A DNA stretch of 64,000 nucleotides from Pseudonocardiaceae bacterium (GTDB lineage: Bacteria; Actinomycetota; Actinomycetes; Mycobacteriales; Pseudonocardiaceae). This document shows positions 22,860 to 37,714 of the stretch, one piece after another. Under the pieces are notes generated by a model. The model made no database searches, was not told where the DNA came from, and saw nothing but the letters and a program-made list of their open reading frames with translations. The first letter of the stretch is position 1, and each line of letters begins with the position of its first letter. The translations under genes were made by a program, and so were the position numbers. The stretch covers positions 3,856-67,855 of the forward strand of contig DASTLT010000169.1 of the NCBI GenBank assembly GCA_035714625.1, given 5' to 3'.

Positions 22860-23603
22860 TCATACTACGAGTGCGTTAGCCAACCAGCCTCGACGAGCAC
22901 CGCATCCGCGGGGCGATTCCCGGTTCCGCGGCTGCCTGTCTCGGCACTGAGACAAACCCCCGAGCGCTATCCGGGCAGGCCGGCCCGGCGGGCCATGCCC
23001 CGCAATTCCTGATCCGCCGGGGAACCCCGCCGCGAGTGCCCCAGTAGCGCGGCGGGCAGGGCGGCACCCGGTTCGGGGGCCCGATGCCAGCGGGCTGTGG
23101 ACTGGCCCAGATCGGTGGGTGGCAGCGGTACCCAGCAGCTCGGCCCCCGGTAGCTGATCGCGGGGCCAGGCCGCCATCGCCGGCAGCAGCCCGGCGCCGG
23201 AGGCCACCAAGACCAGCCAGCGGTCCGCGCCCAGCGCCACGACCGGCCCGGCCACCGGGGCCGTGTCCAGCGCGAGCAGTACCGCCGCGGCCAGTGGGGT
23301 GGGTAGCTCCACGGCGTCTACGCCGTGCCCGCAGACCAGCAGGACGCCATAGCGGCGGTGGCTCCAGGTGGCATGTGCCTGCTCCCAGGTTGTGATCGGC
23401 TGATCTGGCCAGCGCTCGTCGAGCGGACCCAACCCGGTCGCGTCGCTGCTGCCGTGGCGGCCGCACCAGCGGCCTGCGGTGTCGGCGGGATAGGTCCCGG
23501 CCACGATCGGCCAACCCCGGGTGACTGCCCCGACCGCGGTCTCCCGCAGCAGCGCCTGCACATCCGGCAGACGCCCGGCGCGTGATGGTGATGGTGATGA
23601 CAT
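22860..23603 (-). CDS. bifunctional DNA primase/polymerase (Prim-Pol) N-terminal-domain-like protein
   Basis: 247-aa ORF. The N-terminal 150 aa (GWPIVAG...YGVLLVCGHGVDAVELP...GPVVALGADRWLVLV) resemble small actinomycete Prim-Pol-like proteins. The C-terminal ~90 aa are Arg/Gly/Pro-rich and may be degenerate. Confidence 0.4.
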   Translation of the reverse strand: MSSPSPSRAGRLPDVQALLRETAVGAVTRGWPIVAGTYPADTAGRWCGRHGSSDATGLGPLDERWPDQPITTWEQAHATWSHRRYGVLLVCGHGVDAVELPTPLAAAVLLALDTAPVAGPVVALGADRWLVLVASGAGLLPAMAAWPRDQLPGAELLGTAATHRSGPVHSPLASGPRTGCRPARRATGALAAGFPGGSGIAGHGPPGRPARIALGGLSQCRDRQPRNRESPRGCGARRGWLANALVV

Positions 23604-23889
23604 CGCTCACACTCCCCTCTGCGCGCGGCAGATAGCACTGCTGCCCACGCTTGACACCCGCCGCGCACCGGTGCGGACCGCGGCCTGGCCTGGAGTGGCC
23701 CAGGCGCCGGGCGGCCACGCACCCCGTTGCTAAACGGACCCACAGTGACGACTATCGCGACAGTCAAGACATCAAGACGCGATTGAGTCACAAGGGAGGC
23801 GCAGAGCATCACTCCCTCTGCCCCACGGCGGTGGAAGGTGTCGCAGACTGTCGTCATCGAGGCACGATCGGTCCTGGTGGGAGGTCACG

Positions 23890-25113
23890 GTGCAGGACGA
23901 GCTGAGCGCGCCCGCCGTGCCGGCGTCGGTGGGCCAGCGGGTGGCCCGGCAACGCCGGCTGTGCGGGCTGACTCAGGCCCAGCTCGCCGCCCGGGCCGCG
24001 GTGGAAGTGAGCCTGCTCGGGCAGGTCGAGCGGGGGCTCGCGCTGGCCTCCCCGGCGCTGGTCGCCGCCGTCGCTCGCGCGCTGGGGGTCGAGGTGGCCA
24101 GCGTGTACGGCCAGCCCTATCCGCCGCCGATCACCGACCCGGACGCCGATCACGCCGGGATCCCCGCGCTGCGCGCCGCGCTGGGCCACGAGCAGGACCC
24201 CGACCCCGACTGCCCGCCGAGCACCCCGACTGAGCTGCGGGCCCGCCTCGACGCCTGCGAGCAGCACCGGGCCGCTGGCTGCTACCGGCAGCTGACCATC
24301 GCGTTACCGGAGGTGCTGGCGCGCGCCTACGCGCTCGCCCACCAGGCCCGCGACGCCGGTGCGGCGAAGACGGCGTGGGCGTTGGTCACCGACGCCTGCC
24401 TGCTCGCCTTGGCCGCCGCCTACCGGTTCGGCTATCTCGACCTGGCCCTGCTGTGCGGGCAGCACGCCCGGCCCGCAGCCGGGCAGGCAGCAGATCCGCT
24501 GCGCGTCGCGCTCTGTGACTACCAGCGAGCCGGGCTGCGCCGCTACCGCGGCGACTACTATGGCGCCCTGCTGGCGCTGGAGCGGGCCCACCTGCGGCTA
24601 GCCGAGCAGACCAGTCCCGCTGCGGATGCGCTGCGGGTGGCGCTGCACCTGCGGGAAGCGATCATCCACGCCCGCCTCGGCACCCCCACTAGGGCCCACC
24701 AGCACCTCGACCGGGCCGCCGACCTGCTCGCCCGCGGGTTGCCGCCCAGCCCCCGCTACGGCATTGCCGCCACGGCGACCACCCTCGACATCCACCACGT
24801 GGCCGTCGCCGTCGAGCTGGACGACCCGGACACCGCGCTGGCCCGCGCCGAGCAGATCAAGATCCCGACCGGGGAGTCCGCCGCCGTGGTCGGCCGGTAC
24901 TGGATCGACCTCGCCCGCGCCCATACCCTGCGCGCCGACCCCACCCCGGCCCTGCACGCGCTGCACCAGGCCCGCCACACCGCCCCGCAACTGGCCCGCT
25001 ATCACTCCCAGGTGCACCAGATCGTGCACCTGCTCACCGAGACCGCCCGCCGCGACCCGGACACCCTGCCCGGATTCGCCCGCTGGGCCGGCCTGACCCC
25101 CGGCTCCCCCTGA
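23890..25113 (+). CDS. XRE-family transcriptional regulator (N-terminal HTH + C-terminal helical-repeat/TPR-like domain)
   Basis: 407 aa. HTH VGQRVARQRRLCGLTQAQLAARAAVEVSLLGQVERG. SD GGGAGG precedes GTG 23890. A paralogue lies immediately downstream. Confidence 0.7.
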   Translation: MQDELSAPAVPASVGQRVARQRRLCGLTQAQLAARAAVEVSLLGQVERGLALASPALVAAVARALGVEVASVYGQPYPPPITDPDADHAGIPALRAALGHEQDPDPDCPPSTPTELRARLDACEQHRAAGCYRQLTIALPEVLARAYALAHQARDAGAAKTAWALVTDACLLALAAAYRFGYLDLALLCGQHARPAAGQAADPLRVALCDYQRAGLRRYRGDYYGALLALERAHLRLAEQTSPAADALRVALHLREAIIHARLGTPTRAHQHLDRAADLLARGLPPSPRYGIAATATTLDIHHVAVAVELDDPDTALARAEQIKIPTGESAAVVGRYWIDLARAHTLRADPTPALHALHQARHTAPQLARYHSQVHQIVHLLTETARRDPDTLPGFARWAGLTPGSP

Positions 25114-25134
25114 CCCCACGTTGGAGGCGCACCC

Positions 25135-26429
25135 ATGTGCGGCAACGCCAACAGCAACGCCAACGGCAACGGCAACGGCACTGAGACCGCCCCACCCGGA
25201 TCGGTCGGCCACCGGCTGGCCCGCGCCCGCAAGCTGGCCGGGCTCACCCAACACCAGCTCGCCGCCCGCGCCCACGTCAGCAAGAGCCTGATCTCCCAAG
25301 TCGAACGCGGTGTGGTGCCCGCCTCCCCGGCATTCACCGCCGCCGTGGCCCGCGGGCTGGGCCTGGAGCCTCAGGCCCTGACCGGCGAACCCTACGGCCC
25401 GCCGATCACTGACCCAAGGCGGAGCATGCCGGGATCCCCGCCCTGCGCGCTGCCCTGGACAACGACGAAGACCCCGATCTCGAGGGCTTCCCGCTGACCC
25501 CCGCCGACCTGCGCACCCGCCTCGATACCTGCCAGGCCCAGCGGCAGAAGGCCCAGTACTCCCTGGTCATCGCTGCACTGCCGGACCTGCTCAATCACGT
25601 CTACGCCCTGGTGGCCGGCGCCCGACCCGGCAACGCAGCCGACACCGCATGGGCCCTGCTCGACGACGCCTACGAACTCGCCCAGGTCGTCTGTCTGCGG
25701 TTCGGCTACTACGACCTGGGAGCACTGGCCGCCCGGTGCGGGCGCGACGCCGCCACCAAGGCCGGAGACCCCGTGCGCGCCGCCGTGGCGGCCTTCCGCT
25801 ACACCGGCGCGCGGCTGCGCCGCGGTGATCACGCGGGTGTACTCCGAGCCCTCGACCGTGCTCACGGTCTGATCGAGAGCGAGCACTCACCCACCGCCGA
25901 CGCCGTACGAACCGTCGTGCACCTGCGCCAGGCGCGGGTCCAGGCCCGGCTGGGGGCACGGGATCGGGCCGATGAGCACGTCGGCGAGGCACGTCGGCTG
26001 CTGGTCAGCGGCATACCCACCCGCCCCTACTACAGCGTGAACGCGACACCGGCCAACATCGAAATGCACCACGTCGAAGTGCCCGTCGAACTCGCCGACG
26101 GCACCACCGCCGTCAGCCGAGCCGAACAGGTCCAGTTCCTCCCCGATACTCATGCCACCATCGCCGGCCACCACTGGGTCAACGTCGCCCGCGCCTGGAC
26201 CCTGCACGGTGATCGCGCCAAGGCCCTCGCCGCGCTGCAGGAGGCCCGCCGGATCGCCCCCCAGCAGACTCGCTACCACCCCAGCGTGCACGAAACCGTG
26301 CACCTGCTCGCCGAGCACGGCCGCCGCGCCACCGACTCCCTCGCTGGCTTCGCCCGCTGGGCCGGCATCACCCTTGAGGCCCGGTGTCCGCACCGTGATG
26401 GAGTCCCAACCGAGCGCGGTGCCTTGTGA
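25135..26429 (+). pseudogene. XRE-family regulator paralogue interrupted by a -1 frameshift
   Basis: Frame 1 (25135-~25418) gives HTH ...GLTQHQLAARAHVSKSLISQVERG...EPYGPPITDP. The alignment to the upstream paralogue (ITDPDADHAGIPALRAAL) continues only in the next frame as EHAGIPALRAALDNDEDPD... from about 25421 to the stop at 26429. Confidence 0.6.
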
Positions 26430-26519
26430 AACTCTTGCGAGTCGCACCGGTGACCGATTGACCAGATTTAGCACTCACTCAGCTACTGTCAGTCTGTATT
26501 GATGCCTGGGGGCCGTGTG

Positions 26520-26732
26520 ACTGCTTCCACCGATCGAGGCGCATTCTGGGCCGGGACGCAGCCGGGCTCGCTGAGCACGTGGCCGAACAGCTGCGGATCT
26601 GGCACCGGGAACACCACGACGGCGCCGCCCGCAGTATCCGCGTCTACCCGGCCGGGCACGCCCGACGACCAGCTCCCCGGAGGGCGTGTCATCGAGAAGA
26701 CGCATAGCCGCCTCGCGATCTCCTGGCCGATG
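26520..26732 (+). pseudogene. relic 3-prime end (~70 codons) of a second FxLD-system methyltransferase, frameshifted and without its stop
   Basis: Two frames together read RRILGRDAAGLAEHVAEQLRIWHREHHDGAARSIRVYPAG / TPDDQLPGGRVIEKTHSRLAISWP. This aligns with the C-terminus of the intact enzyme (FRIYGHGPGGERLAEEYVDLIQAWDRDHRGGSGARITVYPADTPNSQLPEGRVIDKKHTRVVISWP*). Confidence 0.55.
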
Positions 26733-26813
26733 TCAAGTTCTACAAAGACCATCCCACCCCTACTCGGTGGATGCCTTTGCATTCCGAACCCAACCCACTG
26801 GAGAGTAACCCCG

Positions 26814-28040
26814 TTGAGCACACTCCGAGACAGGAACGTCAGCGCTGCTGACGGCACCACCCGTGAGAAGATGGTCCGCGAACTGCGTGAGCTGGGGGCG
26901 ATCCACAGCGACTCGGTCGCGGCTGCCGTCAGCACGGTGCCGCGGCACCTGTTCGCTCCTGGTGAGCCGCTGGACACGGTGTACGCCGCCACCCGTTCCA
27001 TCGTCACCAAGAGGAACGAGCACGGCGCGGCGATCAGTTCGCTGTCCGAGTCGCACATTCAGGCGACCATGCTGGAACAGGCCCAGATCGAACCTGGCAT
27101 GCGGGTTCTGGAGATCGGAACGGGCGGCTACAACGCGGCGTTGATCGCCGAACTTGTCGGCGAGTCAGGCCAGGTGACCTCCGTCGACATCGACCCCGAC
27201 ATTGTCGATCGAGCCCGGAGCTGCCTGGCTGCGGCGGGTTACGACCAGGTCAACGTGGTGTTGGCCGATGCCGAGCACGGCGTGCCGGACCGCGCTCCGT
27301 TCGACCGGGTCATCGTGACCGCCGCGGCGTGGGACATCCCACCGGCGTGGACTGACCAGTTGGCCGGGGACGGGCGAATCGTCGTCCCGCTCCGGATGCG
27401 CGGATTGACCCGCTCGGTGAGCTTGGAGCGCGGAGAACACCACTTGGTGAGCCGAGACTACAAGCTCTGCGGGTTCGTGCCGATGCAAGGCGCCAGCGCC
27501 CACAGCGAGCGGGTAATCCCCCTCGATGAGGGGAAGGTCACGCTGCAGATCGACGGAGACCAGCCGGTTGATTCGGACCGTTTGCGGGATGCATTGTTCA
27601 GTCCACGAGTCGAGCGTCGGGTGTGCACATTTAGAGCCGGCGAACCTCTCCACGACCTGGACATGTGGGTTATCACCGTTGTGGACGATTTCGGCCTGCT
27701 GAAAGCGACAGAGGAAGCGATCGACAGCGAACTGGTTAGCAAAACCACACGCCTAGGTGGCAGAGCAGTCATAGCAGGTGGGAGTTTCGCGTACCGGGCA
27801 TTCCCGCAACCAATAGACGGCAGTCGTACGAAGTTCCAATTCCGCATCTATGGGCATGGTCCGGGCGGTGAACGCCTCGCCGAGGAATACGTGGACCTGA
27901 TCCAGGCGTGGGATCGGGACCACCGAGGTGGTTCGGGTGCACGGATAACGGTGTACCCGGCGGATACGCCCAATAGTCAGCTTCCCGAAGGTCGGGTCAT
28001 CGACAAGAAGCACACGCGAGTCGTCATCTCCTGGCCCTGA
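26814..28040 (+). CDS. protein-L-isoaspartate O-methyltransferase-like enzyme of the FxLD lanthipeptide system (LanS-type)
   Basis: PIMT fold: VSTVPRHLFAP, SAM motif VLEIGTGGYNAALIAELVG, VTSVDID. It also has the ~190-aa C-terminal extension typical of 'methyltransferase, FxLD system'. Proposed TTG start at 26814, 8 nt after GGAGAG (alternative ATG 26871). The 513-aa ORF-track version includes the upstream relic. Confidence 0.8.
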   Translation: MSTLRDRNVSAADGTTREKMVRELRELGAIHSDSVAAAVSTVPRHLFAPGEPLDTVYAATRSIVTKRNEHGAAISSLSESHIQATMLEQAQIEPGMRVLEIGTGGYNAALIAELVGESGQVTSVDIDPDIVDRARSCLAAAGYDQVNVVLADAEHGVPDRAPFDRVIVTAAAWDIPPAWTDQLAGDGRIVVPLRMRGLTRSVSLERGEHHLVSRDYKLCGFVPMQGASAHSERVIPLDEGKVTLQIDGDQPVDSDRLRDALFSPRVERRVCTFRAGEPLHDLDMWVITVVDDFGLLKATEEAIDSELVSKTTRLGGRAVIAGGSFAYRAFPQPIDGSRTKFQFRIYGHGPGGERLAEEYVDLIQAWDRDHRGGSGARITVYPADTPNSQLPEGRVIDKKHTRVVISWP

Positions 28041-28104
28041 CAGCAGGATATCCAGGACCGAAAGCCCATAAGGCTCTCGGGTAACGCACGGGAAGGAGGA
28101 GTAC

Positions 28105-28275
28105 GTGACAGTTCAGGTGGATCAGATGGCGGTCGGAGTGGGCGATGCACAGTTCGATCTCGATGTTAGTATCGTCGAGTCCGGCCCTGTCATCAACGAT
28201 CTGATGCGTTTGACCGACGATGGCTGCGGAACCACGTGTGAGAGCGCCTGTACCGCCCAAAGCGGTTGTGGTTAG
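28105..28275 (+). CDS. FxLD-family class I lanthipeptide precursor (LanA), 56 aa
   Basis: Not in the ORF track (<60 aa). SD GGAAGGAGGA (28091-28100) then GTG 28105. Translation VTVQVDQMAVGVGDAQFDLDVSIVESGPVINDLMRLTDDGCGTTCESACTAQSGCG*. It has an FDLD leader box and a C-terminal 20 aa with 4 Cys and 6 Ser/Thr. It sits between the methyltransferase and LanB. Confidence 0.8.
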   Translation: MTVQVDQMAVGVGDAQFDLDVSIVESGPVINDLMRLTDDGCGTTCESACTAQSGCG

Positions 28276-28293
28276 CCCGGTCTGCTTTGACGC

Positions 28294-31200
28294 ATGTCCG
28301 TGGTCGTGGTGGCGGGGGCGTCACGTCTTCGCCACCACGCTGGTCCGAGTCCTGTGGGGGCGCGGTTGTACCGGTTTGTGGATGCGGCTGTGGTGCGGGC
28401 AGCGGTCTGCCTGCCTGGCGCGGTTCCGCCCTGGCCGGACTTGACCGGTGACACCGAAGAGCATGTGACGCAGTGGTGTCGCTGGCTGCAGCAGGTCTGG
28501 GCGACGGCGGGTTTCGCGGCGAGCGTTGAGGTCGCCAGCCCGACCCTGGCTCGCCGCATCTGGGAGATGTGCGACGGATATCGTCTGCCGACACGCCAAG
28601 TTCGGCGCGTGACGATTTCGGTCATCCGGTATCTGCTGCGAATGACAAGCCGTGCGACACCGTTCGGCTTGTTCTCCGGTGTGGCGCCGGTCGGGCTCGG
28701 GTCCGCACCCAAGATTTGGTTCGGTGAGAACCATCGCGCTGTCGCGCGGATCGATGCTGGATGGCTCGATGGGGTGATTACGCGCCTGGAGAACAGCCGC
28801 GAGCTGTGGCATCGGTTGCTGGTGGTGCGGAACAACCTCGCGTTCGTCCGCGACGGACGGCTGGTGGTGGGGTGCCAGCAGCAGGCTGGCGCAGCACGCG
28901 GGGCCGAGTCAGCGGAGGTATCGGTTCGCTACACCGAGGCCGTTCGGATTGTCCTGCAGGCCGCTGCGGCCCCTATTCGTCTGGGTGAGTTGGCCGGCAA
29001 GCTGGCGGCGGAGTTCCCGGACAGACCGGACGTCGTGATCAACGGGATGCTGGCCGGGTTGGTGGCGCAGCGCATGTTGGTCACCAACCTCCGCCCGCCG
29101 ATGACGGCCATCGATCCGCTGGCCCATGTCGTCAATGCGCTGGCCGCGGTGGGGGCCGACGCGGTGCCCGAGGTGGTCGGCCTGCTGAACGAGCTGCACG
29201 ACATCCACGCCGATCTGGCACGGCATAACGCCGCCTCACCCACCCAGGCCCGTAACCTCCGAGCGCGCGCCTTTCGCGGAATGGCGACGATCGTCACCGC
29301 TGAACGACCGGTCGCGGTGGACCTCCGGCTCGATGGCGGGTTGGTCCTGCCGCCCGCGGTGGTGCGGGAGGCTGAGAACACCGCAGCGGCGCTGGTCAGG
29401 CTGACCCCGCACCCGTTCGGCCCCCCGCGCTGGCAGGAGTACCATCGGCGGTTCTGCGAACGATATGGACTCGGTGCCCTGGTCGGCGTCCACGATTTGC
29501 TCGACGTCGACAGTGGACTCGGGTTTCCCGCCGGCTACCGCGATTCACGCCTGAACCACCCAGCCACCCCCGGTCTGACCGAGCGTGATGTGGCCCTGTT
29601 GGCGTTGGCGCAAAACGCCGCACTGCGGCAGCAAACGGATGTCGTGCTCGATGACACTATGATCGCCAACCTCTCGGCTGGGGCCGTTGACAAGATCCAG
29701 CCGCAGCCGCACACCGAGCTCCGGTGCCGCATCTACGCGCCCAGCACTGAGGCGCTCAGTCGGGGTGAATTCCAGCTCGCGATCACCGGGGTATCCCGCG
29801 CGGCCGGCACCACAACCGGGCGGTTTCTCGACCTTCTCGACGCTGCCGACCGAGACCGCATGTTCCACGCCTACGCCGCGCTTCCCACCGTCAGCGAGGA
29901 TGCCGTGCGGGTACAGGTATCCGGGCCTGCCCTGTACCCGCGTGCCGACAACATCGCCCGCTGCCCCGCCGTGCTGCCACACCTGCTGTCGCTGGCCGAA
30001 CACCATTCCGGCAACACCGGCATCATCCCATTGGACGACCTCGCGGTGAGCGCCGACAGCGAACGCCTCTACTTGATTTCGCTTTCCCGCCAGCGACCAG
30101 TGGAACCGACTGTGCTCAGCGCGGTGGAACTCACCAACCACGCCCATCCGCTCCTGCGGTTCCTGGTCGAGATCGCCACCGCTCGTACCGCGGCGTGCGT
30201 CCCCTTCACCTGGGGCGAGGCTGGGCGATTGCCATTCCTGCCGAGAATTCGCTACCGGCGTTCGATCTTGTGCCCGGCCATGTGGACGCTGACCGCGACC
30301 GACCTTCCGGGAGCAGCCGCGACGTGGCAGGAGTGGGTGGACAGCCTGGTCGCATGGCGAGACCAGTGCCGTGTTCCGGCCTCGGTCTACCTCGGCGATG
30401 GCGATCGGCGGATTCGCCTGGACTTGGCCGAACCCGCCCACCTCACCGTGCTGCGTACTGACCTGGAGCGCAACGGTCACGCCACGGTGCGCGAGGCGCC
30501 GGATGCCAGCGCGTTGGGATGGATCGACGGGCGTGCCCACGACATCGTTATTCCGCTCGCCGCCGCCCAGCCTGCTGCTCCGGGCCCGGCGCGATTGGAC
30601 CGCGTGCTCAGCCGCGAGCACGGGCATCTCCCTGGCAGCAGCGAGTGGCTCTACGTCAAGCTGTACGGGCACCCGGACCGGCAGACCGCCATCCTCACCA
30701 CGCACCTGTCCACCCTGCTGTCCACATGGGACAATGAACCTGACTGGTGGTTCCTGCGCTACCACGACCCCGAGAAGCATCTCCGCCTGCGCATCCGTCT
30801 CCGAGATGCTGGCGACTTCGGACCGGTCGCCGCGCGGATCGCCGAGTGGACAGCCGGGCTACGACGGCTCGGCCTCGTGGGCCAGGTGCAGTGGGACACC
30901 TACTACCCGGAGACCGGACGCTTCGGCAGGGACGCGGCGATGGCCGCGGCAGAGTCGGTGTTCGCCGCCGATTCGGCCGCGGTGATCGCCCAACTGCAAG
31001 CGACCAATCACCGTGGCCCGCACCCGCACGCCGTCATCGCCGCGAGCATGGTCGACCTGGCCATCACCGTCACCGGCAGTATCAGCAATGGGATGCGCTG
31101 GCTAATCAGCCACCTCCGCACGCCCTCCATCCCGGCCCCGCCCCGCGAGGTCCATCACCAAGCAATCCGCCTGGCCAATCCGCACAACGACTGGGCCGCA

Positions 31201-31446
31201 CTCCGGGCGATACCCGGCGGCGACGACATCGCGGCGTCGTGGACGCTACGGCGCACTGCGCTTGCCCGGTATCGCGACGCGCTCGCCACCGAGGACCAGT
31301 TCCCCCCGGACGCAGTGCTAGCGGATCTGCTGCACCTGCATCACGCCCGCATGTCAGGAATCTCCACGGACACCGAGTGGGCCTGCCGCCGCCTGGCCCG
31401 GGCCGCCGCCCTGAGCTGGACCGCGCGAACCCAAGGAGCCCCGTGA
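28294..31446 (+). CDS. class I lanthipeptide dehydratase LanB (full length: glutamylation + elimination domains)
   Basis: 1050 aa. N-terminal YRFVDAAVVRAAV...ASPTLARRI, typical of Lant_dehydr_N. C-terminal SpaB_C-type blocks WLYVKLYGHPDRQ, WWFLRYHDPEKHLRLRIRL, YYPETGRFG, LLHLHHARMSG. Confidence 0.9.
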   Translation: MSVVVVAGASRLRHHAGPSPVGARLYRFVDAAVVRAAVCLPGAVPPWPDLTGDTEEHVTQWCRWLQQVWATAGFAASVEVASPTLARRIWEMCDGYRLPTRQVRRVTISVIRYLLRMTSRATPFGLFSGVAPVGLGSAPKIWFGENHRAVARIDAGWLDGVITRLENSRELWHRLLVVRNNLAFVRDGRLVVGCQQQAGAARGAESAEVSVRYTEAVRIVLQAAAAPIRLGELAGKLAAEFPDRPDVVINGMLAGLVAQRMLVTNLRPPMTAIDPLAHVVNALAAVGADAVPEVVGLLNELHDIHADLARHNAASPTQARNLRARAFRGMATIVTAERPVAVDLRLDGGLVLPPAVVREAENTAAALVRLTPHPFGPPRWQEYHRRFCERYGLGALVGVHDLLDVDSGLGFPAGYRDSRLNHPATPGLTERDVALLALAQNAALRQQTDVVLDDTMIANLSAGAVDKIQPQPHTELRCRIYAPSTEALSRGEFQLAITGVSRAAGTTTGRFLDLLDAADRDRMFHAYAALPTVSEDAVRVQVSGPALYPRADNIARCPAVLPHLLSLAEHHSGNTGIIPLDDLAVSADSERLYLISLSRQRPVEPTVLSAVELTNHAHPLLRFLVEIATARTAACVPFTWGEAGRLPFLPRIRYRRSILCPAMWTLTATDLPGAAATWQEWVDSLVAWRDQCRVPASVYLGDGDRRIRLDLAEPAHLTVLRTDLERNGHATVREAPDASALGWIDGRAHDIVIPLAAAQPAAPGPARLDRVLSREHGHLPGSSEWLYVKLYGHPDRQTAILTTHLSTLLSTWDNEPDWWFLRYHDPEKHLRLRIRLRDAGDFGPVAARIAEWTAGLRRLGLVGQVQWDTYYPETGRFGRDAAMAAAESVFAADSAAVIAQLQATNHRGPHPHAVIAASMVDLAITVTGSISNGMRWLISHLRTPSIPAPPREVHHQAIRLANPHNDWAALRAIPGGDDIAASWTLRRTALARYRDALATEDQFPPDAVLADLLHLHHARMSGISTDTEWACRRLARAAALSWTARTQGAP

Positions 31447-32690
31447 GTCGACTCATTCCGGACGCGTTGGCCATGGCCACCGCGATCGCCTCCCGCTTGG
31501 CCGACCCGCACGCGGTCGGCACGCCCGGTGCTGTTGCAGGGGGCCGAGGTCGCCGTCGTCCCCAATCGCTGGCCGGCGGCGCAGCGGGTATCGCCCTGCT
31601 GCACATCGAACGCGCCTACACCGGCCACGGCGACTGGAACACGGCCCACGCCTGGCTGACTGCCGCCGTCCGCGACGAGTTGAGCGTCGGCCCCAACGCT
31701 GGCCTGTACTTCGGCGCGCCGACCCTGGCGTTCGTCACCAACGCCGCCGCCAACCAGCCCGGCAAGTACGAGCGAGCGCTCGCCCAACTCGACGCGAGCA
31801 CCGTTATCGTGACCCGACGCCGTCTCGACCGAGCCCATGCCCGCATCGACCGTGGCGAGCGGCCCCTGATGGCCGAGTTCGACGTCATCCGAGGCCTGAC
31901 CGGCTTCGGCGTCTACCACCTGCGGCGCCACCCGGACGATGACATCACGCGAGCCGTACTGTCCTACCTCGTCCGGCTGACCGAACCGCTTCCGGGCAGC
32001 ACCGACGGTCTACCGGGCTGGTGGACCGACGTTTCTCTGAACGGCGAGCCTTCACCGGACCTTCCCGGCGGTCACGGCAACTTCGGCATGTCGCACGGCA
32101 TCGCCGCCCCGCTGGCGTTGCTGTCGCTCGCCATGCTGCGGGGCGTCGTCGTGGAGGGACACACCGACGCCATCGCCCGGATCTGCGCCTGGCTGGACGC
32201 ATGGCAACAGGAGCACCCATCCGGTCCATGGTGGCCTGGGTACATCACCCTCGAACATGTCCACAAAGGACGTGTCGAGAACTCCAGCCAGCAATGCCCG
32301 TCGTGGTGCTACGGCACGCCCGGTGTTGCCCGCGCCCAACAACTCGCCGGTCTGGCTAGCGGCGATTTCGCACGGCAACGCACCGCCGAGGCGGCCATGC
32401 TCGGCTGCCTTCGCGATCCTGACCAACTCGACCGCCTCCCCGAAACGGGCCTGTGCCACGGCATGGCCGGCCTGTTCCAGACCGCTTGGCGGATGGCTGC
32501 CGACGCCAGCACACCCGACATCGCGGCTGAGTTGCCGGGGCTGGCGACAAGGCTGCTCGCCAGGTTCCGTGCGGCACCCGAGGAGGTGGAGTTCCTCGAC
32601 GGGCACGCGGGCGTGGCTCTCGCCCTGCACACCGCTGGAACCGACACCGCCCCGCTCACGCACTGGGACGCGTGCTTGCTTCTCGCCTAA
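31443..32690 (+). CDS. lanthionine synthetase C-family cyclase LanC
   Basis: GTG 31443 overlaps the LanB stop (GTGA). 415 aa. Motifs GAAGIALL, GHGNFGMSHGIAAPLALL, CPSWCYGTPGVA, GLCHGMAGL (Zn ligands Cys/Cys/His). The 647-aa ORF-track version is an out-of-frame upstream extension. Confidence 0.9.
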   Translation: MSRLIPDALAMATAIASRLADPHAVGTPGAVAGGRGRRRPQSLAGGAAGIALLHIERAYTGHGDWNTAHAWLTAAVRDELSVGPNAGLYFGAPTLAFVTNAAANQPGKYERALAQLDASTVIVTRRRLDRAHARIDRGERPLMAEFDVIRGLTGFGVYHLRRHPDDDITRAVLSYLVRLTEPLPGSTDGLPGWWTDVSLNGEPSPDLPGGHGNFGMSHGIAAPLALLSLAMLRGVVVEGHTDAIARICAWLDAWQQEHPSGPWWPGYITLEHVHKGRVENSSQQCPSWCYGTPGVARAQQLAGLASGDFARQRTAEAAMLGCLRDPDQLDRLPETGLCHGMAGLFQTAWRMAADASTPDIAAELPGLATRLLARFRAAPEEVEFLDGHAGVALALHTAGTDTAPLTHWDACLLLA

Positions 32691-32711
32691 CCACGAAGGA
32701 ACTCCACCAGC

Positions 32712-33602
32712 ATGAACGATGACCTCGATCCGCACCCCGCGCAGCATTCCTGGCGTCAGGTGTTCATCCACTTCCACGACTACGCCGTTGCCGAACACAT
32801 CAGCAGCGTCCACATCGGTCTGGAACTGGCCAGCGCCGAGACGGCCAGGCAGATCTCGTCGTGGTTCTTCACGCGCAAGAACCCGTGCTGGCGACTGCGT
32901 TTCCGGCCAGCGCGTGACAGCGCCGAACAGAATGGGGCGTTCGTCCATCAGCGACTCGACAGGTTGCAAGCCGCCGGCCACATTGCGAACTGGGTCGAGA
33001 CCCTCTACGAACCAGAGACCTACGCCTTCGGCGGCGCGGAAGGTATGACCCTGGCTCACCGCCTCTTCCACGCCGACAGCCGACACATCCTCGCCTACCT
33101 CGCCAACCAAGGCGCGAACACGTCCGGCGGCCGCGGCGACCAACGGCGCGAGCTGTCCGTGCTGCTGTGCAGCATCCTGATGCGCAGCGCGAGACAAGAC
33201 TGGTACGAACAGGCAGACATCTGGGCACGCGTCGCCGAGTTCCGGCCCCATCCACCCGGCACGCCCTCCGGCTCGCTGAGCCGCCTGGAATCCGGCGTCC
33301 GGCGGCTGATGACCGTGGACACGAGCCCCGCCAGCCCTCTCCTGCAGGAACGCGGATCGAGGGCCTTTCTCTCCGAGTGGGCCGCGGCCTTCGCCGACGC
33401 AGGCCAGACCCTGGGCGAGCTTGCCCGCAACGGCACGTTGCGCCGGGGTCTGCGCGCCGTCCTCGCGCACCACATCATCTTCCACTGGAACCGGCTCGGT
33501 CTGCCATCCACTACGCAAAGCCTGCTCGCTTACACCGCCAAGGCGGTCGTCCTGGGCAGTGATGAGAGTGGCGCGGTCCCCGGCACCACCGAGGTCTGCT
33601 GA
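32712..33602 (+). CDS. stand-alone LanB C-terminal-like (SpaB_C / 'thiopeptide-type bacteriocin biosynthesis') domain protein
   Basis: 296 aa. WRQVFIHFHD..., SSWFFTRKNPCWRLRFRP, LYEPETYAFGG and LAHHIIFHWNRLGL parallel the elimination-domain blocks of the adjacent LanB. Confidence 0.75.
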   Translation: MNDDLDPHPAQHSWRQVFIHFHDYAVAEHISSVHIGLELASAETARQISSWFFTRKNPCWRLRFRPARDSAEQNGAFVHQRLDRLQAAGHIANWVETLYEPETYAFGGAEGMTLAHRLFHADSRHILAYLANQGANTSGGRGDQRRELSVLLCSILMRSARQDWYEQADIWARVAEFRPHPPGTPSGSLSRLESGVRRLMTVDTSPASPLLQERGSRAFLSEWAAAFADAGQTLGELARNGTLRRGLRAVLAHHIIFHWNRLGLPSTTQSLLAYTAKAVVLGSDESGAVPGTTEVC

Positions 33603-33705
33603 AGTATCAGGAATGACCACCACTGTCAGCGACGCTTTCGTGGTCTTCGCCGACGAGCTGGGCCTCACGCTGACCGGCGAGCTGTGAGCGGTGAGGAGTG
33701 ACGGG

Positions 33706-34812
33706 ATGGACGCCACCGGGCCGTTGGCTCGCCGCTTTCCGCTCGTCGCCCGCCTACGCCCGGCCTGCACTCCTCTCCCCCAGCGCGTGGCGGACCTGTG
33801 CGACCGAGCCCGGAAGGCCGAACGGGACAGCGACCTGGCAGCCGCAGCCGCCGTCCACAACCTGGCAGCGCTCGTTGCCTCGGACTGCGGCCTACCCAAC
33901 CTGGCCCGACAGTGGTGTCACCGCCAAGCGAACCTGTACCTGCGCGCCTGTCCCCTGAGCGCTCAGGCAGCGCGTCACGCCCTCGAACCGCTGATCAACC
34001 TTGCCCGTCTGCACATCCGCGACGGCCAGGGCGAGCGCGCCTTCGACCTCGTCGACGCCCTCTACACCGCTGTCTGCGCCCGCACCCATGCCACCATCGA
34101 CGGCGTGGAGATACCCGCTCACCTCATCCATTCCCGGGAGGCACATCAGGAAGTCCGCCGCTGGCTGTGGGCGGTCCTGCTGGCCACCGGTGCCCGCGCT
34201 CTCGCCACCGCCGGACACTGGCAGGAAGCCTGCGCCTGCCTGCGCGACCACAAGGGCATCGGCCGCCGCATGCTCGACGGCCGCCAAGTCGCGGTCATTG
34301 CCCACGCCACGTCCGGGGACACCGAAGAGGCCCTCGCCCTTCTGGACGGCACCGAGCACGGAGAGCCATGGGAGAACGCGGTCACTGCCTGCCTCACCAT
34401 GCAATGCCGCAGCGGCTCGGGCACCGCGAGCCTGGAGCCCCTCCTGGACCACTACCGCGTGCTCGGCACCCCGGCACCTGGCGTGGCGGTCTTTCACACC
34501 CGCCTGGGCCTGTCCTTCCTCGACGCCATCGGCATCCCCGGCAACCCCCTCGCACACCGGATCGCCACCGACCTGATCGGCTATACCACCGCTGCGCAAG
34601 ACGGATACGCCGCCCGTGACCTCCTCGCCCACAGCGGCTGCAACCACCTCCTCACCGACACCCAAACACACGAACTGACCGGCCTGGTCGAAGCATGCGC
34701 GCTCGGACGCGGCACGTTCCCCGCGACGCTGCTGGCGGCTCTCACGACCGCGCTGGCCAGCGTTGACGAGGTCATCGCGCGCACGGTAGCGGGCAAGAGA
34801 AGGGCATACTGA
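33706..34812 (+). CDS. hypothetical all-helical (TPR-like repeat) protein co-oriented with the lanthipeptide genes
   Basis: ATG 33706 lies 7 nt after GAGGAG (the ORF-track GTG 33691 is less likely). 368 aa, Ala/Leu/His-rich with a repeating helical character. No catalytic motif recognised. Confidence 0.5.
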   Translation: MDATGPLARRFPLVARLRPACTPLPQRVADLCDRARKAERDSDLAAAAAVHNLAALVASDCGLPNLARQWCHRQANLYLRACPLSAQAARHALEPLINLARLHIRDGQGERAFDLVDALYTAVCARTHATIDGVEIPAHLIHSREAHQEVRRWLWAVLLATGARALATAGHWQEACACLRDHKGIGRRMLDGRQVAVIAHATSGDTEEALALLDGTEHGEPWENAVTACLTMQCRSGSGTASLEPLLDHYRVLGTPAPGVAVFHTRLGLSFLDAIGIPGNPLAHRIATDLIGYTTAAQDGYAARDLLAHSGCNHLLTDTQTHELTGLVEACALGRGTFPATLLAALTTALASVDEVIARTVAGKRRAY

Positions 34813-35006
34813 CGTTCCCTGAACGAACAGCCATCCTCGCCGGTCGGGCTCACGTAGGGCGTGCACTATGGGGCTCCGGGCCGCCGTGTCGCATCCCGGC
34901 ACGGCTCGTAAGGCGTGGGCGCGGTGTCGACGAAGGCTTTGGACGGATCGAACGGATCGAGCAGCTCCCGAGGACCGGGCGAAAGCATTCTTTAGCGAAC
35001 GGCCGG

Positions 35007-35597
35007 GTGTGGTCGCTTGCCGCGAATCGAGATCACATCATGGCTGCCTGCGGTGATGGCCAGGTGCGGGTGTGGTCGTTACGCGATGAAAGGGGACCAC
35101 TCACCTTCAACGACGACCAGGAGCGTACGTGGTCGGTGACCGCACCCCAGGCCCAGTATCTCGCCGCCAGTACCGGCGACGGGCATGTTCGGTTATGGGA
35201 TCTGGTTTCTGGAGAGATGCTGTGGGAGCGTGATGCCGACGCGGGCCGGGTGCGATCTGTAGTTGATCCACCCGGCACTCGATTGGCTGTCGGCTCAGGC
35301 ACCGGCGACATCTACGTACGCGACGTTGTCGTCGGCAGGTTCACGGCCCACCTTCCCGACCATAGGGGCCGCGTGCTGATGCTGGGTTTCCCTGCCAACC
35401 CCGACCGGCTGATTTCCGCGGCTGCGGACGGTACAGCGAGGATCTGGTCGCTGAGCGAGCAGCGCCAGATCGCCGAGGTGCGGATCGACGCCTCGCTGCA
35501 CTGCGCAGCATACGACCCGACGACTGGCCGTCTGCTCGCGGCCAGCGCCGCCGGTCTCGCCATGGTGACCGTCGACCTCCCCTGTCCGGGACAGTGA
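35007..35597 (+). CDS. WD40-repeat protein fragment (about 4-5 blades; probably a truncated remnant)
   Basis: Repeats ending GDGQVRVWSL, GDGHVRLWDL, GTGDIYVRDV, ADGTARIWSL. Too short for a 7-bladed propeller. It contains TTA Leu codons and no convincing start or SD. Its stop overlaps the next start (GTGA). Confidence 0.55.
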   Translation: MWSLAANRDHIMAACGDGQVRVWSLRDERGPLTFNDDQERTWSVTAPQAQYLAASTGDGHVRLWDLVSGEMLWERDADAGRVRSVVDPPGTRLAVGSGTGDIYVRDVVVGRFTAHLPDHRGRVLMLGFPANPDRLISAAADGTARIWSLSEQRQIAEVRIDASLHCAAYDPTTGRLLAASAAGLAMVTVDLPCPGQ

Positions 35598-36799
35598 AGG
35601 AACTACTAAATATGCCCAAGGCAGCTCACGAGGAGCCACTAGCCGACGCACCGCCAATTCTTAGCAATGTGCCCGGATCATTCGCCTGGGGTGTTTTCCA
35701 CCAGCGGCATCCCGCCCTGGTGAAGCAGATACGCGACGCCTTCCCCTACCCTCCCGCCCAGGATAACGCGGTCGCCCGTCTCGGCAGGAGTCCTCGGCGG
35801 GACTGATCGCACCACTGGGTCGGCACGCGCATGATCATGAGGCGTGGGATGACTGGGGTCGGGACTACTTCGGTCAGCGGTGGATCGATGTTCCCTTTCT
35901 ATGGGCGGAGAGCTATTTCTACCGCAGGCTCCTCGACGCCACCGGATTCTTCGAACCTGGTCCGTGGGCCGGTATCGACCCTTTCGCACCGTTCAAGAAT
36001 GCCGAACTGGGTGACGCCTCGCTCGATACCGAGCTCGCGGTGCTGGACGACGTGCTGTCGCTGCCCGCGACCGAGCAAGCGTCCGGATTGCTGCACGCAT
36101 CGCTGTGGGGCAACCGCGCGGACCTGGGGTTCAGGATCTCGGCTGGAGCGACCGCAGGACCTGATGAGGTGACCGGCCTCGTGGCCGATGACCGCGCGCT
36201 GCTGTGGTCGATGCTAACCAGCCGGTCACTGCGGAGATCTGCCTGGTGGCCGACAATGCCGGGCGCGAACTGCTCTCTGACCTGGTTCTCATCGACCACC
36301 TGTTGTCGGGCGGCCACGCGGACACGGCGACGCTGCACATCAAGCCCCACCCGTACTACATCTCCGACGCGACCACTGCAGACCTGATCGCGTGCTTGTG
36401 CCGACTCGCCTGCGCCCCAGCGCGGCTCGCCAAGGTAGGCAAACGGTTGTGGCAAGCCATCCAGACCGGGCAGCTCGTCGTACAGACCCATGCCTTCTTT
36501 TGCGCGCCGTTGTCGTATCATTATATGCCGGCTGATCTCGCTGCGCGGTTTAGCTCGGCATCGCTCACGGTCATGAAGGGCGACCTGAACTACCGGCGGT
36601 TCGTCGGCGACTGCCAGTGGCCGGCGACGACACCTTTCGGCTCCTTGGCCCGTTACTTTCCCAGGCCGGTCGCCGCGCTGCGCACGCTGAACCCGACGTC
36701 GTCGTCGGCATCGACGTGCCGGTGCGGTCGGCGTTGGACGCCACTGGCGAGCAATGGCGAACGAACGGCACCCGCGCCCTGATTCAGGTGCGACCATAG
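35594..36799 (+). pseudogene. DUF89 / ARMT1-like damage-control phosphatase gene with at least three -1 frameshifts
   Basis: Homology runs through three reading frames with one return: SFAWGVFHQRHPALVKQIRDAFPYPP (35594 frame); ESSAGLIAPL...WIDVPFLWAESYFYRRLLDATGFF...LHASLWGNRADLG (shift ~35782); ICLVADNAGRELLSDLVLIDHLL...MKGDLNYRRFVGD (shift ~36200); DVVVGIDVPVRSALDATGEQWRTNGTRALIQVRP* (shift ~36693). Confidence 0.65.
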
Positions 36800-36982
36800 G
36801 AATCCCGGGTCGGCGCCGACCGATGCCAAGTGATTGTGGTGATCTGTCTGGGACGGGAGACCACCATGATCCGCGATGGGGGCAGATGCGATGGACGATA
36901 CCAGCCGCGATAACGTCACGTCCCAAGACGGGGCCGGGATCTGTCCGATCCCGGTGCCCACAAACGGGAGGAAGGCAGCCGG

Positions 36983-37714
36983 ATGGCGGTGGATGGAGTG
37001 CACGGTGCAGGGGCGTTCAGCCAGGCGACCGGCCGCATTGCCGGGGAGGAAGCGGGCCCGGACAAGCCCCGCTACCGGCAGTTTCAGCATGACCTGATCG
37101 CCCCGCACTGCGGCCGATCGGTGCTGGAGGTCGGTGCTGGCCTGGGCGAGTTCGCCGAGCAGTTGACCGACCTGGATCGGCTCGTGGTGACCGACGTGGA
37201 CCCCGAGGCGGTGGCGGTGATGCGACGGCGGTTCGCCGGACGGCCCGAGGTGCAGGTGCGCCAGCTCAACCTCGAGTCGGGTCTGGAACTTGACGAGCCG
37301 GTCGACACCGTGGTCACCATCAACACCCTGGAGCACATCGAGGACGACGTCGCGGCACTGCGCTCGCTGGCCCGGCTCGTCGTGCCCGGCGGCACCATCG
37401 TGCTGTGGGTCCCCGGTTACCAGCAACTCTATGGCGACTTTGACCGTAAGGTCGGCCACGTCCGCCGTTACACCCCGGCCACGCTGACCGCGAGCTTCCA
37501 GGCAGCAGGGTTGGTGCCCACCCTGGTCAAGCCGGTCAACCTGCTCGGGGGCATCGCCTGGTGGGCAGCCGTGCGCCGGAGCGGCACCGGATCACCCAAC
37601 CCTCGTCTGGTCGCCGTCTACGATCGCGTGCTCGTCCCGATGACCCGCGCGCTGGAGCGCCTGGTCCGGGTCCCCTTCGGCCAGTCCATCCTCGGGGTGG
37701 CACGGTGCTCGTGA
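36983..37714 (+). CDS. class I SAM-dependent methyltransferase
   Basis: 243 aa. SD GGGAGGAAGG precedes the ATG. Motif I VLEVGAGLGEFAEQL, acidic loop VVTDVD, motif TINTLEHIEDD. Confidence 0.75.
   Translation: MAVDGVHGAGAFSQATGRIAGEEAGPDKPRYRQFQHDLIAPHCGRSVLEVGAGLGEFAEQLTDLDRLVVTDVDPEAVAVMRRRFAGRPEVQVRQLNLESGLELDEPVDTVVTINTLEHIEDDVAALRSLARLVVPGGTIVLWVPGYQQLYGDFDRKVGHVRRYTPATLTASFQAAGLVPTLVKPVNLLGGIAWWAAVRRSGTGSPNPRLVAVYDRVLVPMTRALERLVRVPFGQSILGVARCS

What the first reader, a model, noticed from the sequence alone, without database searches (positions are those of the whole stretch)
26814..33602. Intact class I lanthipeptide cluster with a PIMT-like O-methyltransferase (lanS-lanA-lanB-lanC plus an extra domain protein)
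Five co-directional, tightly packed genes (gaps of 64, 18, -4 and 21 nt). The PIMT-like methyltransferase has the long C-terminal extension of the 'methyltransferase, FxLD system' family. The precursor follows. LanB is 1050 aa and has both glutamylation and elimination domains. LanC has all Zn-ligand motifs (SHGIAAP, WCYGTPG, CHGMAG). A stand-alone SpaB_C-like protein comes last. Established knowledge: LanB dehydrates Ser/Thr via glutamyl-tRNA and LanC forms thioether rings. As I recall from the Streptomyces olivaceus Olv system, the LanS-type methyltransferase esterifies an Asp so that it rearranges through a succinimide to isoaspartate, a backbone beta-amino acid. All catalytic genes here look intact although neighbouring genes are decaying, which argues for selection on the product. 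The family is described; this core, the extra domain protein and the genomic context are what may be new.
Basis: partly seen in the sequence, partly recalled or inferred. Interest (0 to 1): 0.8.

Follow-up and report, generated by a model that had tools for sequence, protein, structure and literature searches.

The report
Coi-type (lanthiphage) class I lanthipeptide cluster
This is an intact six-gene lanthipeptide cluster of an already described and very common actinobacterial family (the S. coelicolor "coi" / "lanthiphage" type), so it is a new member of that family and not a new kind of system.

Summary
Five co-directional genes lie at the stated coordinates with the stated gaps. They are an FxLD-system PIMT-like methyltransferase, an FxLD precursor, a full-length LanB, a LanC and a stand-alone Lant_dehydr_C protein.

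Three points need correcting.
1. The cluster has a sixth conserved gene (33706-34812) encoding a TPR-like protein. It follows the stand-alone domain gene in about 50 of 80 related loci.
2. The "extra domain protein" is not new. It carries the published signature of a syn-type Thr-glutamyl lyase: Lys for Tyr, Ala for NisB Arg826, Ile for the catalytic His. The resident LanB keeps the canonical residues. This makes the cluster coi-type (S. coelicolor CoiSA/CoiH), not olv-type.
3. The core TDDGCGTTCESAC fits the lanthiphage motif TXDXCXXXCXXXC. Its closest cultured relative is the Thermobifida cellulosilytica cluster, whose 24-residue predicted core differs from the window's at one position (the window's also ends in an extra Gly). 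That cluster is listed as a "Defensive" lanthiphage in Shomar et al. 2024.

The host is a Pseudonocardiaceae MAG. The cluster sits in a ~15 kb lower-GC island that splits glnE from glnA. All six genes show dN/dS of 0.07-0.39. A 65-codon stub of a second, different lanS lies just upstream.

Verdict: new member of a known kind; modest interest.

The parts
26540..26729 (+). lanS' stub. It is a remnant of the 3' end of a second, different FxLD methyltransferase gene, covering about residues 344-408 with one frameshift and no stop codon. It runs in frame into lanS.
   Evidence: tblastn of LanS against 26430-26813 gives two pieces in frames +3 and +1. The reconstructed peptide is 65-67% identical to LanS C-termini of Actinomadura loci L050/L061/L070, but only 49% identical to the resident LanS.
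26814..28040 (+). lanSA / lphE. PIMT-like O-methyltransferase of the FxLD system, 408 aa: PCMT domain at residues 17-226 plus a C-terminal extension.
   Evidence: TIGR04364 at 553.8 bits (cut-off 320) and PF01135 at 143.7 bits. TTG start with GGAGAG 8 nt upstream. dN/dS 0.26.
28105..28275 (+). lanA. FxLD precursor peptide, 56 aa: leader with FDLD, core ...LTDDGCGTTCESACTAQSGCG.
   Evidence: TIGR04363 at 63.7 bits (cut-off 30). Sequence. Core motifs TxDGC and TXDXCXXXCXXXC are present. 89% identical to the L007 precursor and 78% to the L012 precursor. dN/dS 0.07-0.08 against L007 and L012 (0.21 against L006).
28294..31446 (+). lanB / lphB. Full-length dehydratase with a glutamylation domain and a canonical (anti-type) glutamate-elimination domain.
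   Evidence: PF04738 at 732 bits and PF14028 at 163 bits. Y823, R831, R833, E873, R876 and H1014 are conserved, as in 41 paired clusters.
31443..32690 (+). lanC / lphC. Lanthionine cyclase with intact Zn-ligand motifs.
   Evidence: PF05147 at 130.7 bits over 4-349 of 350 profile positions. SHGIAAP, WCYGTPG and CHGMAG are in the translation.
32712..33602 (+). lphD. Stand-alone additional glutamyl-lyase-fold protein with the syn-lyase residue signature (K56, R61, R63, E102, A105, I256).
   Evidence: PF14028 at 96 bits and TIGR03891 at 196 bits. The AF2 model (pLDDT 85) matches the MibB, MadB and NisB elimination domains.
33706..34812 (+). Sixth cluster gene, in the lphF/coiH position. All-alpha TPR-like protein of unknown function (368 aa from the ATG at 33706; 373 aa from the GTG at 33691).
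   Evidence: It follows lphD in about 50 of 80 related loci. The family has 735 members, mostly unnamed. The AF2 model has pLDDT 91.5 and is all helices. PDB matches are only weak, and the best-ranked are mostly TPR-type or related helical-repeat proteins. 11 of 30 homologs hit TPR_7 and 10 of 30 hit TPR_19. dN/dS 0.27-0.39.

Best explanation
This is a coi-type, 'lanthiphage'-family class I lanthipeptide gene cluster in a Pseudonocardiaceae genome.

Proposed pathway:
1. LanB binds the FxLD leader and glutamylates Ser/Thr of the core using Glu-tRNA.
2. LanB's own C-terminal domain removes glutamate by anti-elimination at most sites, giving Dha or (Z)-Dhb.
3. The stand-alone lyase LphD removes glutamate by syn-elimination at one or more Thr, giving (E)-Dhb.
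4. LanC adds the four Cys to the dehydro residues. [quoted passage not shown]
5. The LanSA methyltransferase then methylates Asp39 of the T37-D-D39-G-C41 ring. The ester collapses to an aspartimide, which can hydrolyse mainly to isoaspartate.
6. The TPR-like sixth protein has an unknown accessory role.

There is no protease or exporter gene in the island. The product most likely stays in the cell and, like tested relatives, interferes with phage transcription.

Shown here: gene content, family assignments, active-site signatures, synteny and purifying selection.
Inferred by homology: every chemical step, the site of LphD action and the anti-phage role.
For: - Family assignments are above curated cut-offs.
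- LphD versus LanB C-domain residues: in 41 paired clusters LanB has Y/R/R/E/R/H. At the same columns LphD has K56 (38/41), R61 (41/41), R63, E102, A105 (36/41; the rest V, L or gap) and I256 (I or L in 40/41). The mapping to NisB R784, R786, E823 and R826 and to the MibB Tyr comes from the profile alignment. This is the syn-lyase signature described for CoiSA(ED) and SptBb. That paper lists 'additional stand-alone GL' proteins in clusters with a full-length LanB (PMC9486935).
- The LphD model has the elimination-domain fold.
- The gene order LanS-LanA-LanB-LanC-LphD-(TPR-like) recurs in about 50 of 80 loci across Pseudonocardiaceae, Thermobifida, Streptomyces, Actinomadura and Amycolatopsis.
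- The core fits TxDGC and TXDXCXXXCXXXC.
- Locus L012 (T. cellulosilytica NZ_KQ950182.1) has the same synteny, 74% LanC identity and the core DLMRLTDDGCGTTCESACPAQSGC. It is listed as 'lanthiphage', 'Clade 5', 'Defensive'. Five family members were shown to confer phage resistance.
- OlvSA chemistry is summarised.
- dN/dS is 0.07-0.39 for all six genes.
- No ABC transporter or protease was found among the island genes tested.
Against: - No chemistry or phenotype can be tested here.
- PADLOC found no known defence system among 10 neighbouring genes, so the defence-island context is absent. It is present for only about 27% of lanthiphages.
- The Thr that CoiSA(ED) acts on (CoiA1 T57, 14 residues after the TxDGC Thr) has no exact counterpart. 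The window has Thr at +13, and the closest relatives L012, L006 and L016 have Pro there. The site of LphD action therefore cannot be transferred.
- The core has four Cys where CoiA1 has three, so the ring topology is uncertain.
- I could not align directly to the CoiSA, SptBb or CoiH sequences because they were not retrievable.
- Clade membership of LanC is inferred through an ortholog, not from a tree.
Confidence: 0.8

Rival explanations
1. Olv-type reading. The product is an ordinary isoAsp-containing lanthipeptide made by LanB, LanC and LanSA alone. The extra Lant_dehydr_C protein is redundant or inactive.
For: LanB, LanC and LanSA are all present and intact. OlvA maturation needs only these three enzymes. 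LanB retains all canonical elimination residues.
Against: LphD is conserved in the same position in 80 loci, with invariant K56, R63, E102 and A105, and has dN/dS of 0.32-0.39. In the coi system CoiB alone stalls at one dehydration, and the extra lyase is required.
Confidence: 0.08
2. LphD catalyses chemistry other than glutamate elimination, for example a cycloaddition-like or other tailoring step, as in the homologous thiopeptide pyridine synthases.
For: The model also matches the pyridine synthases PbtD and TbtD and TsrL. Walker 2020 raised this possibility. [quoted passage not shown]
Against: The best structural matches are LanB elimination domains (MibB, MadB and NisB, TM 0.60-0.70 against 0.49-0.59 for the cyclases). 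The glutamate-binding Arg pair and Glu are retained. The homologous CoiSA(ED) domain was shown experimentally to eliminate glutamate.
Confidence: 0.06
3. The product is a secreted antibiotic or morphogen, as for classical lantibiotics or SapT, and not an intracellular anti-phage agent.
For: Many lanthipeptides are secreted antimicrobials. SapT also uses a syn-lyase and is morphogenetic. No defence genes were found nearby.
Against: No transporter, protease or immunity gene was found in the island. Relatives in the same cyclase clade are classed as defensive, and tested members act intracellularly without secreted activity.
Confidence: 0.12
4. The cluster is a silent relic on its way to decay, like its neighbours.
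For: It sits in a lower-GC island beside a lanS stub, a split HTH paralog and a WD40 fragment. The S. coelicolor homolog is tightly repressed.
Against: All six ORFs are full length against their profiles. dN/dS is below 0.4, and about 0.07 for the precursor. The sequence is identical in three independent assemblies.
Confidence: 0.04

Closest known systems
coi cluster of Streptomyces coelicolor A3(2) (CoiA1, CoiB, CoiC, CoiSA, CoiH), also called lanthiphage_Sco
   Same: - An FxLD precursor with a TxDGC core.
- A full-length LanB with canonical lyase residues, and a LanC.
- A PIMT-type methyltransferase.
- An additional lyase with the syn-type signature (Lys for Tyr, no Arg826 equivalent, no catalytic His).
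- A following protein of unknown function described as TPR-like.
- No protease or transporter.
   Different: - Here the lyase and the methyltransferase are separate genes, with the methyltransferase upstream of the precursor. In coi they are fused as GL-MT after coiC.
- There is one precursor gene here, against two in coi.
- The core has four Cys and a C-terminal SGCG tail.
- There is no Thr at the spacing of CoiA1 T57.
- No conservon was seen nearby.
olv cluster of Streptomyces olivaceus NRRL B-3009 (OlvA, OlvB, OlvC, OlvSA)
   Same: A LanSA methyltransferase acting on the Asp of a TxDGC ring after LanB and LanC, giving aspartimide and then isoAsp. The leader and core are FxLD-type.
   Different: olv has no additional lyase and no CoiH-like gene. 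Its MeLan and Lan stereochemistry is canonical (dl/ll).
Lanthiphage family (Shomar et al. 2024, bioRxiv 10.1101/2024.06.26.600839), in particular the Thermobifida cellulosilytica TB100 cluster (NZ_KQ950182.1; cyclase 'Clade 5', 'Defensive')
   Same: - The same six-gene order.
- Protein identities of 63-78% to the window.
- Predicted core DLMRLTDDGCGTTCESACPAQSGC against the window's DLMRLTDDGCGTTCESACTAQSGCG.
- The motif TXDXCXXXCXXXC.
- LphB, C, D and E, plus an LphF-like gene.
   Different: - Different host family and different chromosomal site.
- The window has Thr instead of Pro at core position +13 and one extra C-terminal Gly.
- This particular cluster and this clade-5 relative were not themselves tested against phages.
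SapT split dehydratase SptBa/SptBb
   Same: It has a stand-alone glutamyl lyase of the syn type, which gives (E)-Dhb and d-allo-l-MeLan.
   Different: In SapT the lyase is the only one, because LanB is split. Here it is additional to a complete LanB.
Thiopeptide pyridine synthases (TbtD, PbtD) and the TsrL/TsrE entry (PDB 7cww)
   Same: The same Lant_dehydr_C fold (Foldseek E-values 1e-6 to 1e-4).
   Different: They catalyse a formal [4+2] cycloaddition in thiopeptide clusters. Nothing in this cluster suggests azoles or a thiopeptide.

Membership tests
FxLD / LanSA class I lanthipeptides ('lanthimiditides') | Precursor of the FxLD family (TIGR04363) with the conserved TxDGC core motif | tested here: met
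   63.7 bits against a cut-off of 30. FDLD is in the leader and T37-D-D-G-C41 is in the core. The motif is described.
FxLD / LanSA class I lanthipeptides ('lanthimiditides') | PIMT-like methyltransferase of the FxLD-system family, not housekeeping Pcm | tested here: met
   TIGR04364 at 553.8 bits (cut-off 320). All Pcm equivalog models are below their cut-offs.
FxLD / LanSA class I lanthipeptides ('lanthimiditides') | Full-length LanB and LanC with catalytic motifs | tested here: met
   Pfam full-length matches. Zn-ligand motifs. Lyase residues.
FxLD / LanSA class I lanthipeptides ('lanthimiditides') | Asp methylation leading to aspartimide or isoAsp in the cyclised peptide | not testable with these tools
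   This needs MS/NMR of the product or an in vitro SAM assay.
coi-type clusters (additional syn-glutamyl lyase) | A second PF14028 protein or domain alongside a complete LanB | tested here: met
   It is conserved in 80 loci.
coi-type clusters (additional syn-glutamyl lyase) | syn-lyase residue signature: Lys where anti-lyases have Tyr; Arg pair and Glu kept; NisB Arg826 replaced by a hydrophobic residue; catalytic His absent | tested here: met
   K56, R61, R63, E102, A105 and I256, compared with Y823, R831, R833, E873, R876 and H1014 in LanB. The criteria come from PMC9486935. The mapping is through NisB, MibB and the resident LanB, not through a direct alignment to CoiSA or SptBb.
coi-type clusters (additional syn-glutamyl lyase) | CoiH/LphF-like accessory protein | tested here: inconclusive
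   A conserved TPR-like protein occupies the equivalent position and fits the published description. The CoiH sequence itself could not be retrieved for comparison.
coi-type clusters (additional syn-glutamyl lyase) | d-allo-l-MeLan in the product | not testable with these tools
   This needs chiral GC-MS or Marfey analysis.
Lanthiphages (Shomar et al. 2024) | LphB and LphC plus accessory LphD and LphE (and LphF) | tested here: met
.
Lanthiphages (Shomar et al. 2024) | Core peptide motif of the family (TXDXCXXXCXXXC, variants 2/6/8) | tested here: met
   TDDGCGTTCESAC.
Lanthiphages (Shomar et al. 2024) | Cyclase falls in the 'defensive' LanC clade | tested here: inconclusive
   No tree was built. 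The syntenic ortholog L012 (74% LanC identity) is listed as lanthiphage, Clade 5, Defensive.
Lanthiphages (Shomar et al. 2024) | Co-localisation with known defence systems (a statistical enrichment of about 27%, not an obligatory feature) | tested here: not met
   PADLOC gave only domain-level HTH and methyltransferase hits in 10 neighbours.
Lanthiphages (Shomar et al. 2024) | Confers phage resistance | not testable with these tools
   This needs expression and plaque assays.

The most novel reading that the evidence does not exclude
In this four-Cys clade the stand-alone lyase may act on a different Thr from the one in CoiA1. The CoiA1 T57-equivalent position is not conserved: it is Ala in the window and Pro at the neighbouring position in the nearest relatives. 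A possible target is Thr37 of the Asp-bearing ring or Thr44. [quoted passage not shown] That would link the two accessory enzymes chemically. In addition, the lanS' stub and the tandem LanS-LanA modules in relatives suggest that methyltransferase-precursor pairs are exchanged as cassettes on a constant LanB-LanC-LphD-LphF chassis.
Probability: 0.2. Interest if true: 0.5.

Novelty: new member of a known kind. Interest (0 to 1): 0.3.

Why it matters
The finding adds a Pseudonocardiaceae example, at most about 82% identical to any relative found, to a family with more than 2000 members. That family's chemistry (isoAsp/aspartimide, d-allo-l-MeLan) and biology (anti-phage) are under active study.

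Its practical value is limited but real:
- It is a split-gene version, with separate lyase and methyltransferase. That would make it easier to dissect the two accessory activities than in the fused CoiSA.
- Its core lacks the Thr on which the coi lyase acts, so it could show how lyase site-selectivity is set.

It does not open a new question by itself.

Tried and rejected
- A direct phmmer search of LphD against PDB sequences found nothing. A profile search was needed.
- The original Olv paper (PMC6812601) is not held, so Olv facts are taken from the 2026 review and from the Sarksian paper.
- I suspected a second full cluster upstream because of ORFs of similar sizes (408, 1009 and 407 aa at 17751-25113). 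Pfam shows these are an unannotated ORF, GlnE and an HTH regulator, so the idea was rejected.
- Promoter and terminator scans were no better than shuffles.
- There are no tRNA genes in the window that could mark an integration site.
- PADLOC found no defence system in 10 neighbours.
- I searched the window for further remnants of LanB, LanC or LphD, or of an Actinomadura-type cluster, downstream of the cluster. None was found.
- None of the 80 related loci shares the glnE/glnA/Prim-Pol flanks.
- A Foldseek search of the TPR-like model against viral structures was uninformative.

Full report
**1. Observation**

The window is high-GC DNA (65-75% G+C).
- lanS, 26814-28040. It has a TTG start with GGAGAG 8 nt upstream.
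- lanA, 28105-28275.
- lanB, 28294-31446.
- lanC, 31443-32690, overlapping lanB by GTGA.
- A stand-alone Lant_dehydr_C gene, 32712-33602.

Curated HMMs confirm each assignment:
- LanS matches TIGR04364 'methyltransferase, FxLD system' at 553.8 bits (cut-off 320) over essentially the whole profile. Every housekeeping Pcm model stays under its cut-off.
- The 56-aa peptide matches TIGR04363 at 63.7 bits (cut-off 30).
- LanB has full-length Lant_dehydr_N (732 bits) and Lant_dehydr_C (163 bits) matches.
- The last protein matches Lant_dehydr_C and TIGR03891.

Three independent metagenome assemblies encode identical full-length products. This answers the 'frameshifts on resequencing' caveat as far as sequence data can.

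**2. Source and setting**

The identical stand-alone protein is annotated from a Pseudonocardiaceae MAG. The nearest relatives are also Pseudonocardia or Pseudonocardiaceae MAGs.

The flanks form a run of housekeeping genes:
- Upstream: panB, nadE, a glnA2-like gene and glnE (19820-22849).
- Downstream: glnA (37787-39229, minus strand), an RDD gene, DUF4191, lipA, lipB and an E2 acyltransferase.

From my own knowledge, this order resembles the conserved glnA2-glnE-glnA1-lipA-lipB block of actinobacteria.

The lanthipeptide genes lie in a ~15 kb stretch of lower G+C (65-68% against 70-75%) that separates glnE from glnA. This stretch also contains:
- a Prim-Pol gene (22860-23603, minus strand);
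- an HTH regulator (23890-25113) and a split paralog of it (25135-25497 plus 25413-26429);
- a 196-aa WD40 fragment (35007-35597);
- an ORF without family matches (35919-36926, minus strand);
- a small SAM methyltransferase (36983-37714).

None of 80 related loci shares these flanks. No tRNA gene is present. PADLOC finds no known defence system in ten neighbours.

**3. A sixth gene**

The ORF at 33706-34812 lies 88-103 nt after lphD and has no Pfam match itself. A homolog follows LphD directly in about 50 of the 80 related loci.

- Its family has 735 detectable members, almost all annotated as hypothetical proteins.
- Its AlphaFold model is confident (pLDDT 91.5) and entirely helical.
- PDB matches are only weak (E >= 0.01). 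The best-ranked are mostly TPR-type or related helical-repeat proteins, such as NlpI, phage phi105 Rap and Pex5.
- A third of its homologs hit TPR Pfam models.

[quoted passage not shown] Loci with the order LanA-LanB-LanC-LphD-LanS-X (L026, L045, L060, L080) reproduce the coi gene order. I could not compare it with the CoiH sequence itself.

**4. What the 'extra domain protein' is**

Walker et al. 2020 already noted class I clusters with a full-length LanB plus an extra elimination-domain protein, often fused to PIMT.

Sarksian and van der Donk 2022 (PMC9486935) showed the following for the fused domain in S. coelicolor CoiSA:
- It is a second Thr-glutamyl lyase that gives d-allo-l-MeLan, presumably through syn-elimination to (E)-Dhb.
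- Such syn-lyases have a Lys where anti-lyases have Tyr.
- They keep the Arg pair (NisB R784 and R786) and the Glu (E823).
- They replace NisB R826 with a hydrophobic residue and lack the catalytic His.
- They also occur as 'additional stand-alone GL' proteins next to full-length LanBs.

I tested this signature in three ways:
- The profile-to-PDB alignment maps LphD K56 to the MibB Tyr, R61 and R63 to NisB R784 and R786, E102 to E823 and A105 to R826.
- In 30 homologs K56, R63, E102 and A105 are invariant.
- In a joint alignment of 41 clusters, the LanB C-domains carry Y/R/R/E/R/H. The LphD proteins from the same clusters carry K/R/R/E/A/(I or L) at the same columns.

The window's LanB keeps all canonical residues (Y823, R831, R833, E873, R876, H1014). 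The LphD model (pLDDT 85) superposes best on the elimination domains of MibB, MadB and NisB, and then on the thiopeptide pyridine synthases.

LphD is therefore a stand-alone member of the syn-lyase group, and the cluster is coi-type, not olv-type.

**5. The precursor**

The sequence is VTVQVDQMAVGVGDAQFDLDVSIVESGPVINDLMRLTDDGCGTTCESACTAQSGCG.

- It has the FDLD leader motif.
- It has the TxDGC motif, in which the Asp before Gly is the methylation site in OlvA.
- It has the lanthiphage motif TXDXCXXXCXXXC.

Near-identical cores occur in Pseudonocardia MAG L007 (…CESACTVQSGC), Thermobifida cellulosilytica L012 (…CESACPAQSGC), L006 and L016. The core is therefore not new.

Compared with CoiA1 (T43, C47, T50, C51, C55, T57), the first five positions are matched by T37, C41, T44, C45 and C49. 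There is no Thr at +14: the window has Thr at +13, and the closest relatives have Pro there. There is also a fourth Cys (C55).

Ring A (T37-C41, enclosing D39-G40) and a T44-C49 ring can be proposed by analogy. The partners of C45 and C55, and the residue on which LphD acts, cannot be derived from sequence.

**6. Family membership and likely role**

Shomar et al. 2024 define 'lanthiphages' as follows:
- They comprise more than 2000 actinobacterial class I clusters.
- They carry LphB, LphC, LphD (PF14028), LphE (PF01135) or a fused LphDE, and LphF.
- They share the core motif above.
- They rarely have ABC transporters.
- They are enriched in defence islands.

Native expression in S. coelicolor, and heterologous expression of four more clusters, protected against phages. 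The effect was intracellular, acted on phage transcription, and was escaped by mutations in a phage GNAT.

Their supplementary tables list the cyclase of NZ_KQ950182.1 as 'lanthiphage', 'Clade 5', 'Defensive'. That record is my locus L012, which has the same six-gene order and 63-78% protein identity to the window. Its core is listed as DLMRLTDDGCGTTCESACPAQSGC. One tested cluster, Lanthiphage_Sc3, is also clade 5 with core variant 2.

The window's cluster therefore belongs to this family by gene content, motif and orthology. Its own anti-phage activity is an inference.

**7. Selection and decay**

Nei-Gojobori estimates against L007 and L012 give the following dN/dS values:

| Gene | dN/dS |
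|---|---|
| LanS | 0.26 |
| LanA | 0.07-0.08 |
| LanB | 0.24-0.29 |
| LanC | 0.19-0.30 |
| LphD | 0.36-0.39 |
| Sixth gene | 0.27-0.39 |

Directly upstream (26540-26729) lies a 65-codon, frameshifted stub of another lanS. It resembles Actinomadura-type LanS (65-67% identity) more than the resident LanS (49%). Relatives show similar arrangements:
- tandem extra LanS-LanA modules (L010, L016, and L017 with four);
- truncated stubs (L008, L016);
- a Thermobifida cluster listed with two different cores.

The simplest reading is that an earlier methyltransferase-precursor module, or an earlier cluster, was lost or overwritten here.

**8. Verdict**

It is wrong about the closest model, about what might be new and about the extent of the cluster.
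- The cluster is a new member of a well-populated, recently characterised family.
- Residual interest lies in the split lyase/methyltransferase arrangement, the non-conserved lyase target site in this four-Cys core, and the evidence for modular turnover of methyltransferase-precursor pairs.

Noticed in passing
window 26540-26729: A frameshifted 65-codon stub of a second lanS. It is closer to Actinomadura-type LanS (65-67% identity) than to the resident gene (49%). It lacks a stop codon and reads in frame into lanS, giving a 513-codon ORF from 26499.
   Followed up: yes
L010, L016, L017, L008, L006 (related loci): Relatives carry tandem extra LanS-LanA modules (four in L017) or truncated LanS or LanB stubs upstream of the complete cluster. 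In L006 the LanS gene is split by a ~2.4 kb insert. This suggests that methyltransferase-precursor pairs turn over as cassettes.
   Followed up: partly
window 22850-37780: A ~15 kb lower-GC island separates glnE (19820-22849) from glnA (37787-39229, minus strand) within a run of housekeeping genes (panB, nadE, glnA2-like gene, glnE, glnA, lipA, lipB, E2 acyltransferase). It starts with a Prim-Pol gene (22860-23603, minus strand). No tRNA gene or flanking repeat was identified.
   Followed up: partly
window 23890-26429: There are two paralogous HTH regulators, each with a helical C-terminal domain, in tandem. The second is split into a 120-aa HTH ORF (25135-25497) and a 272-aa ORF in another frame (25413/25611-26429). 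Homologs sit upstream of LanS in Actinomadura loci L052 and L070 and in L015.
   Followed up: partly
window 33706-34812 (alignment A2): The TPR-like sixth protein family has many invariant polar residues (for example C21, C71, H147, C229 and D191-G-R-Q194). This is more than expected for a pure scaffold, so an enzymatic or metal-binding role is conceivable.
   Followed up: no
window 35007-35597 and 36983-37714: There is a 196-aa WD40-repeat fragment without an N-terminal domain, which is a likely gene remnant. There is also a 243-aa SAM methyltransferase with a domain-level PADLOC hit to mad2 (44.6 bits). Neither is conserved next to related clusters.
   Followed up: partly
window 78-6433: An AAA_10 (VirB4/TraC-like) ATPase of 917 aa and an NlpC/P60 hydrolase lie at the left end of the window. 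These are conjugative-element-like genes.
   Followed up: no
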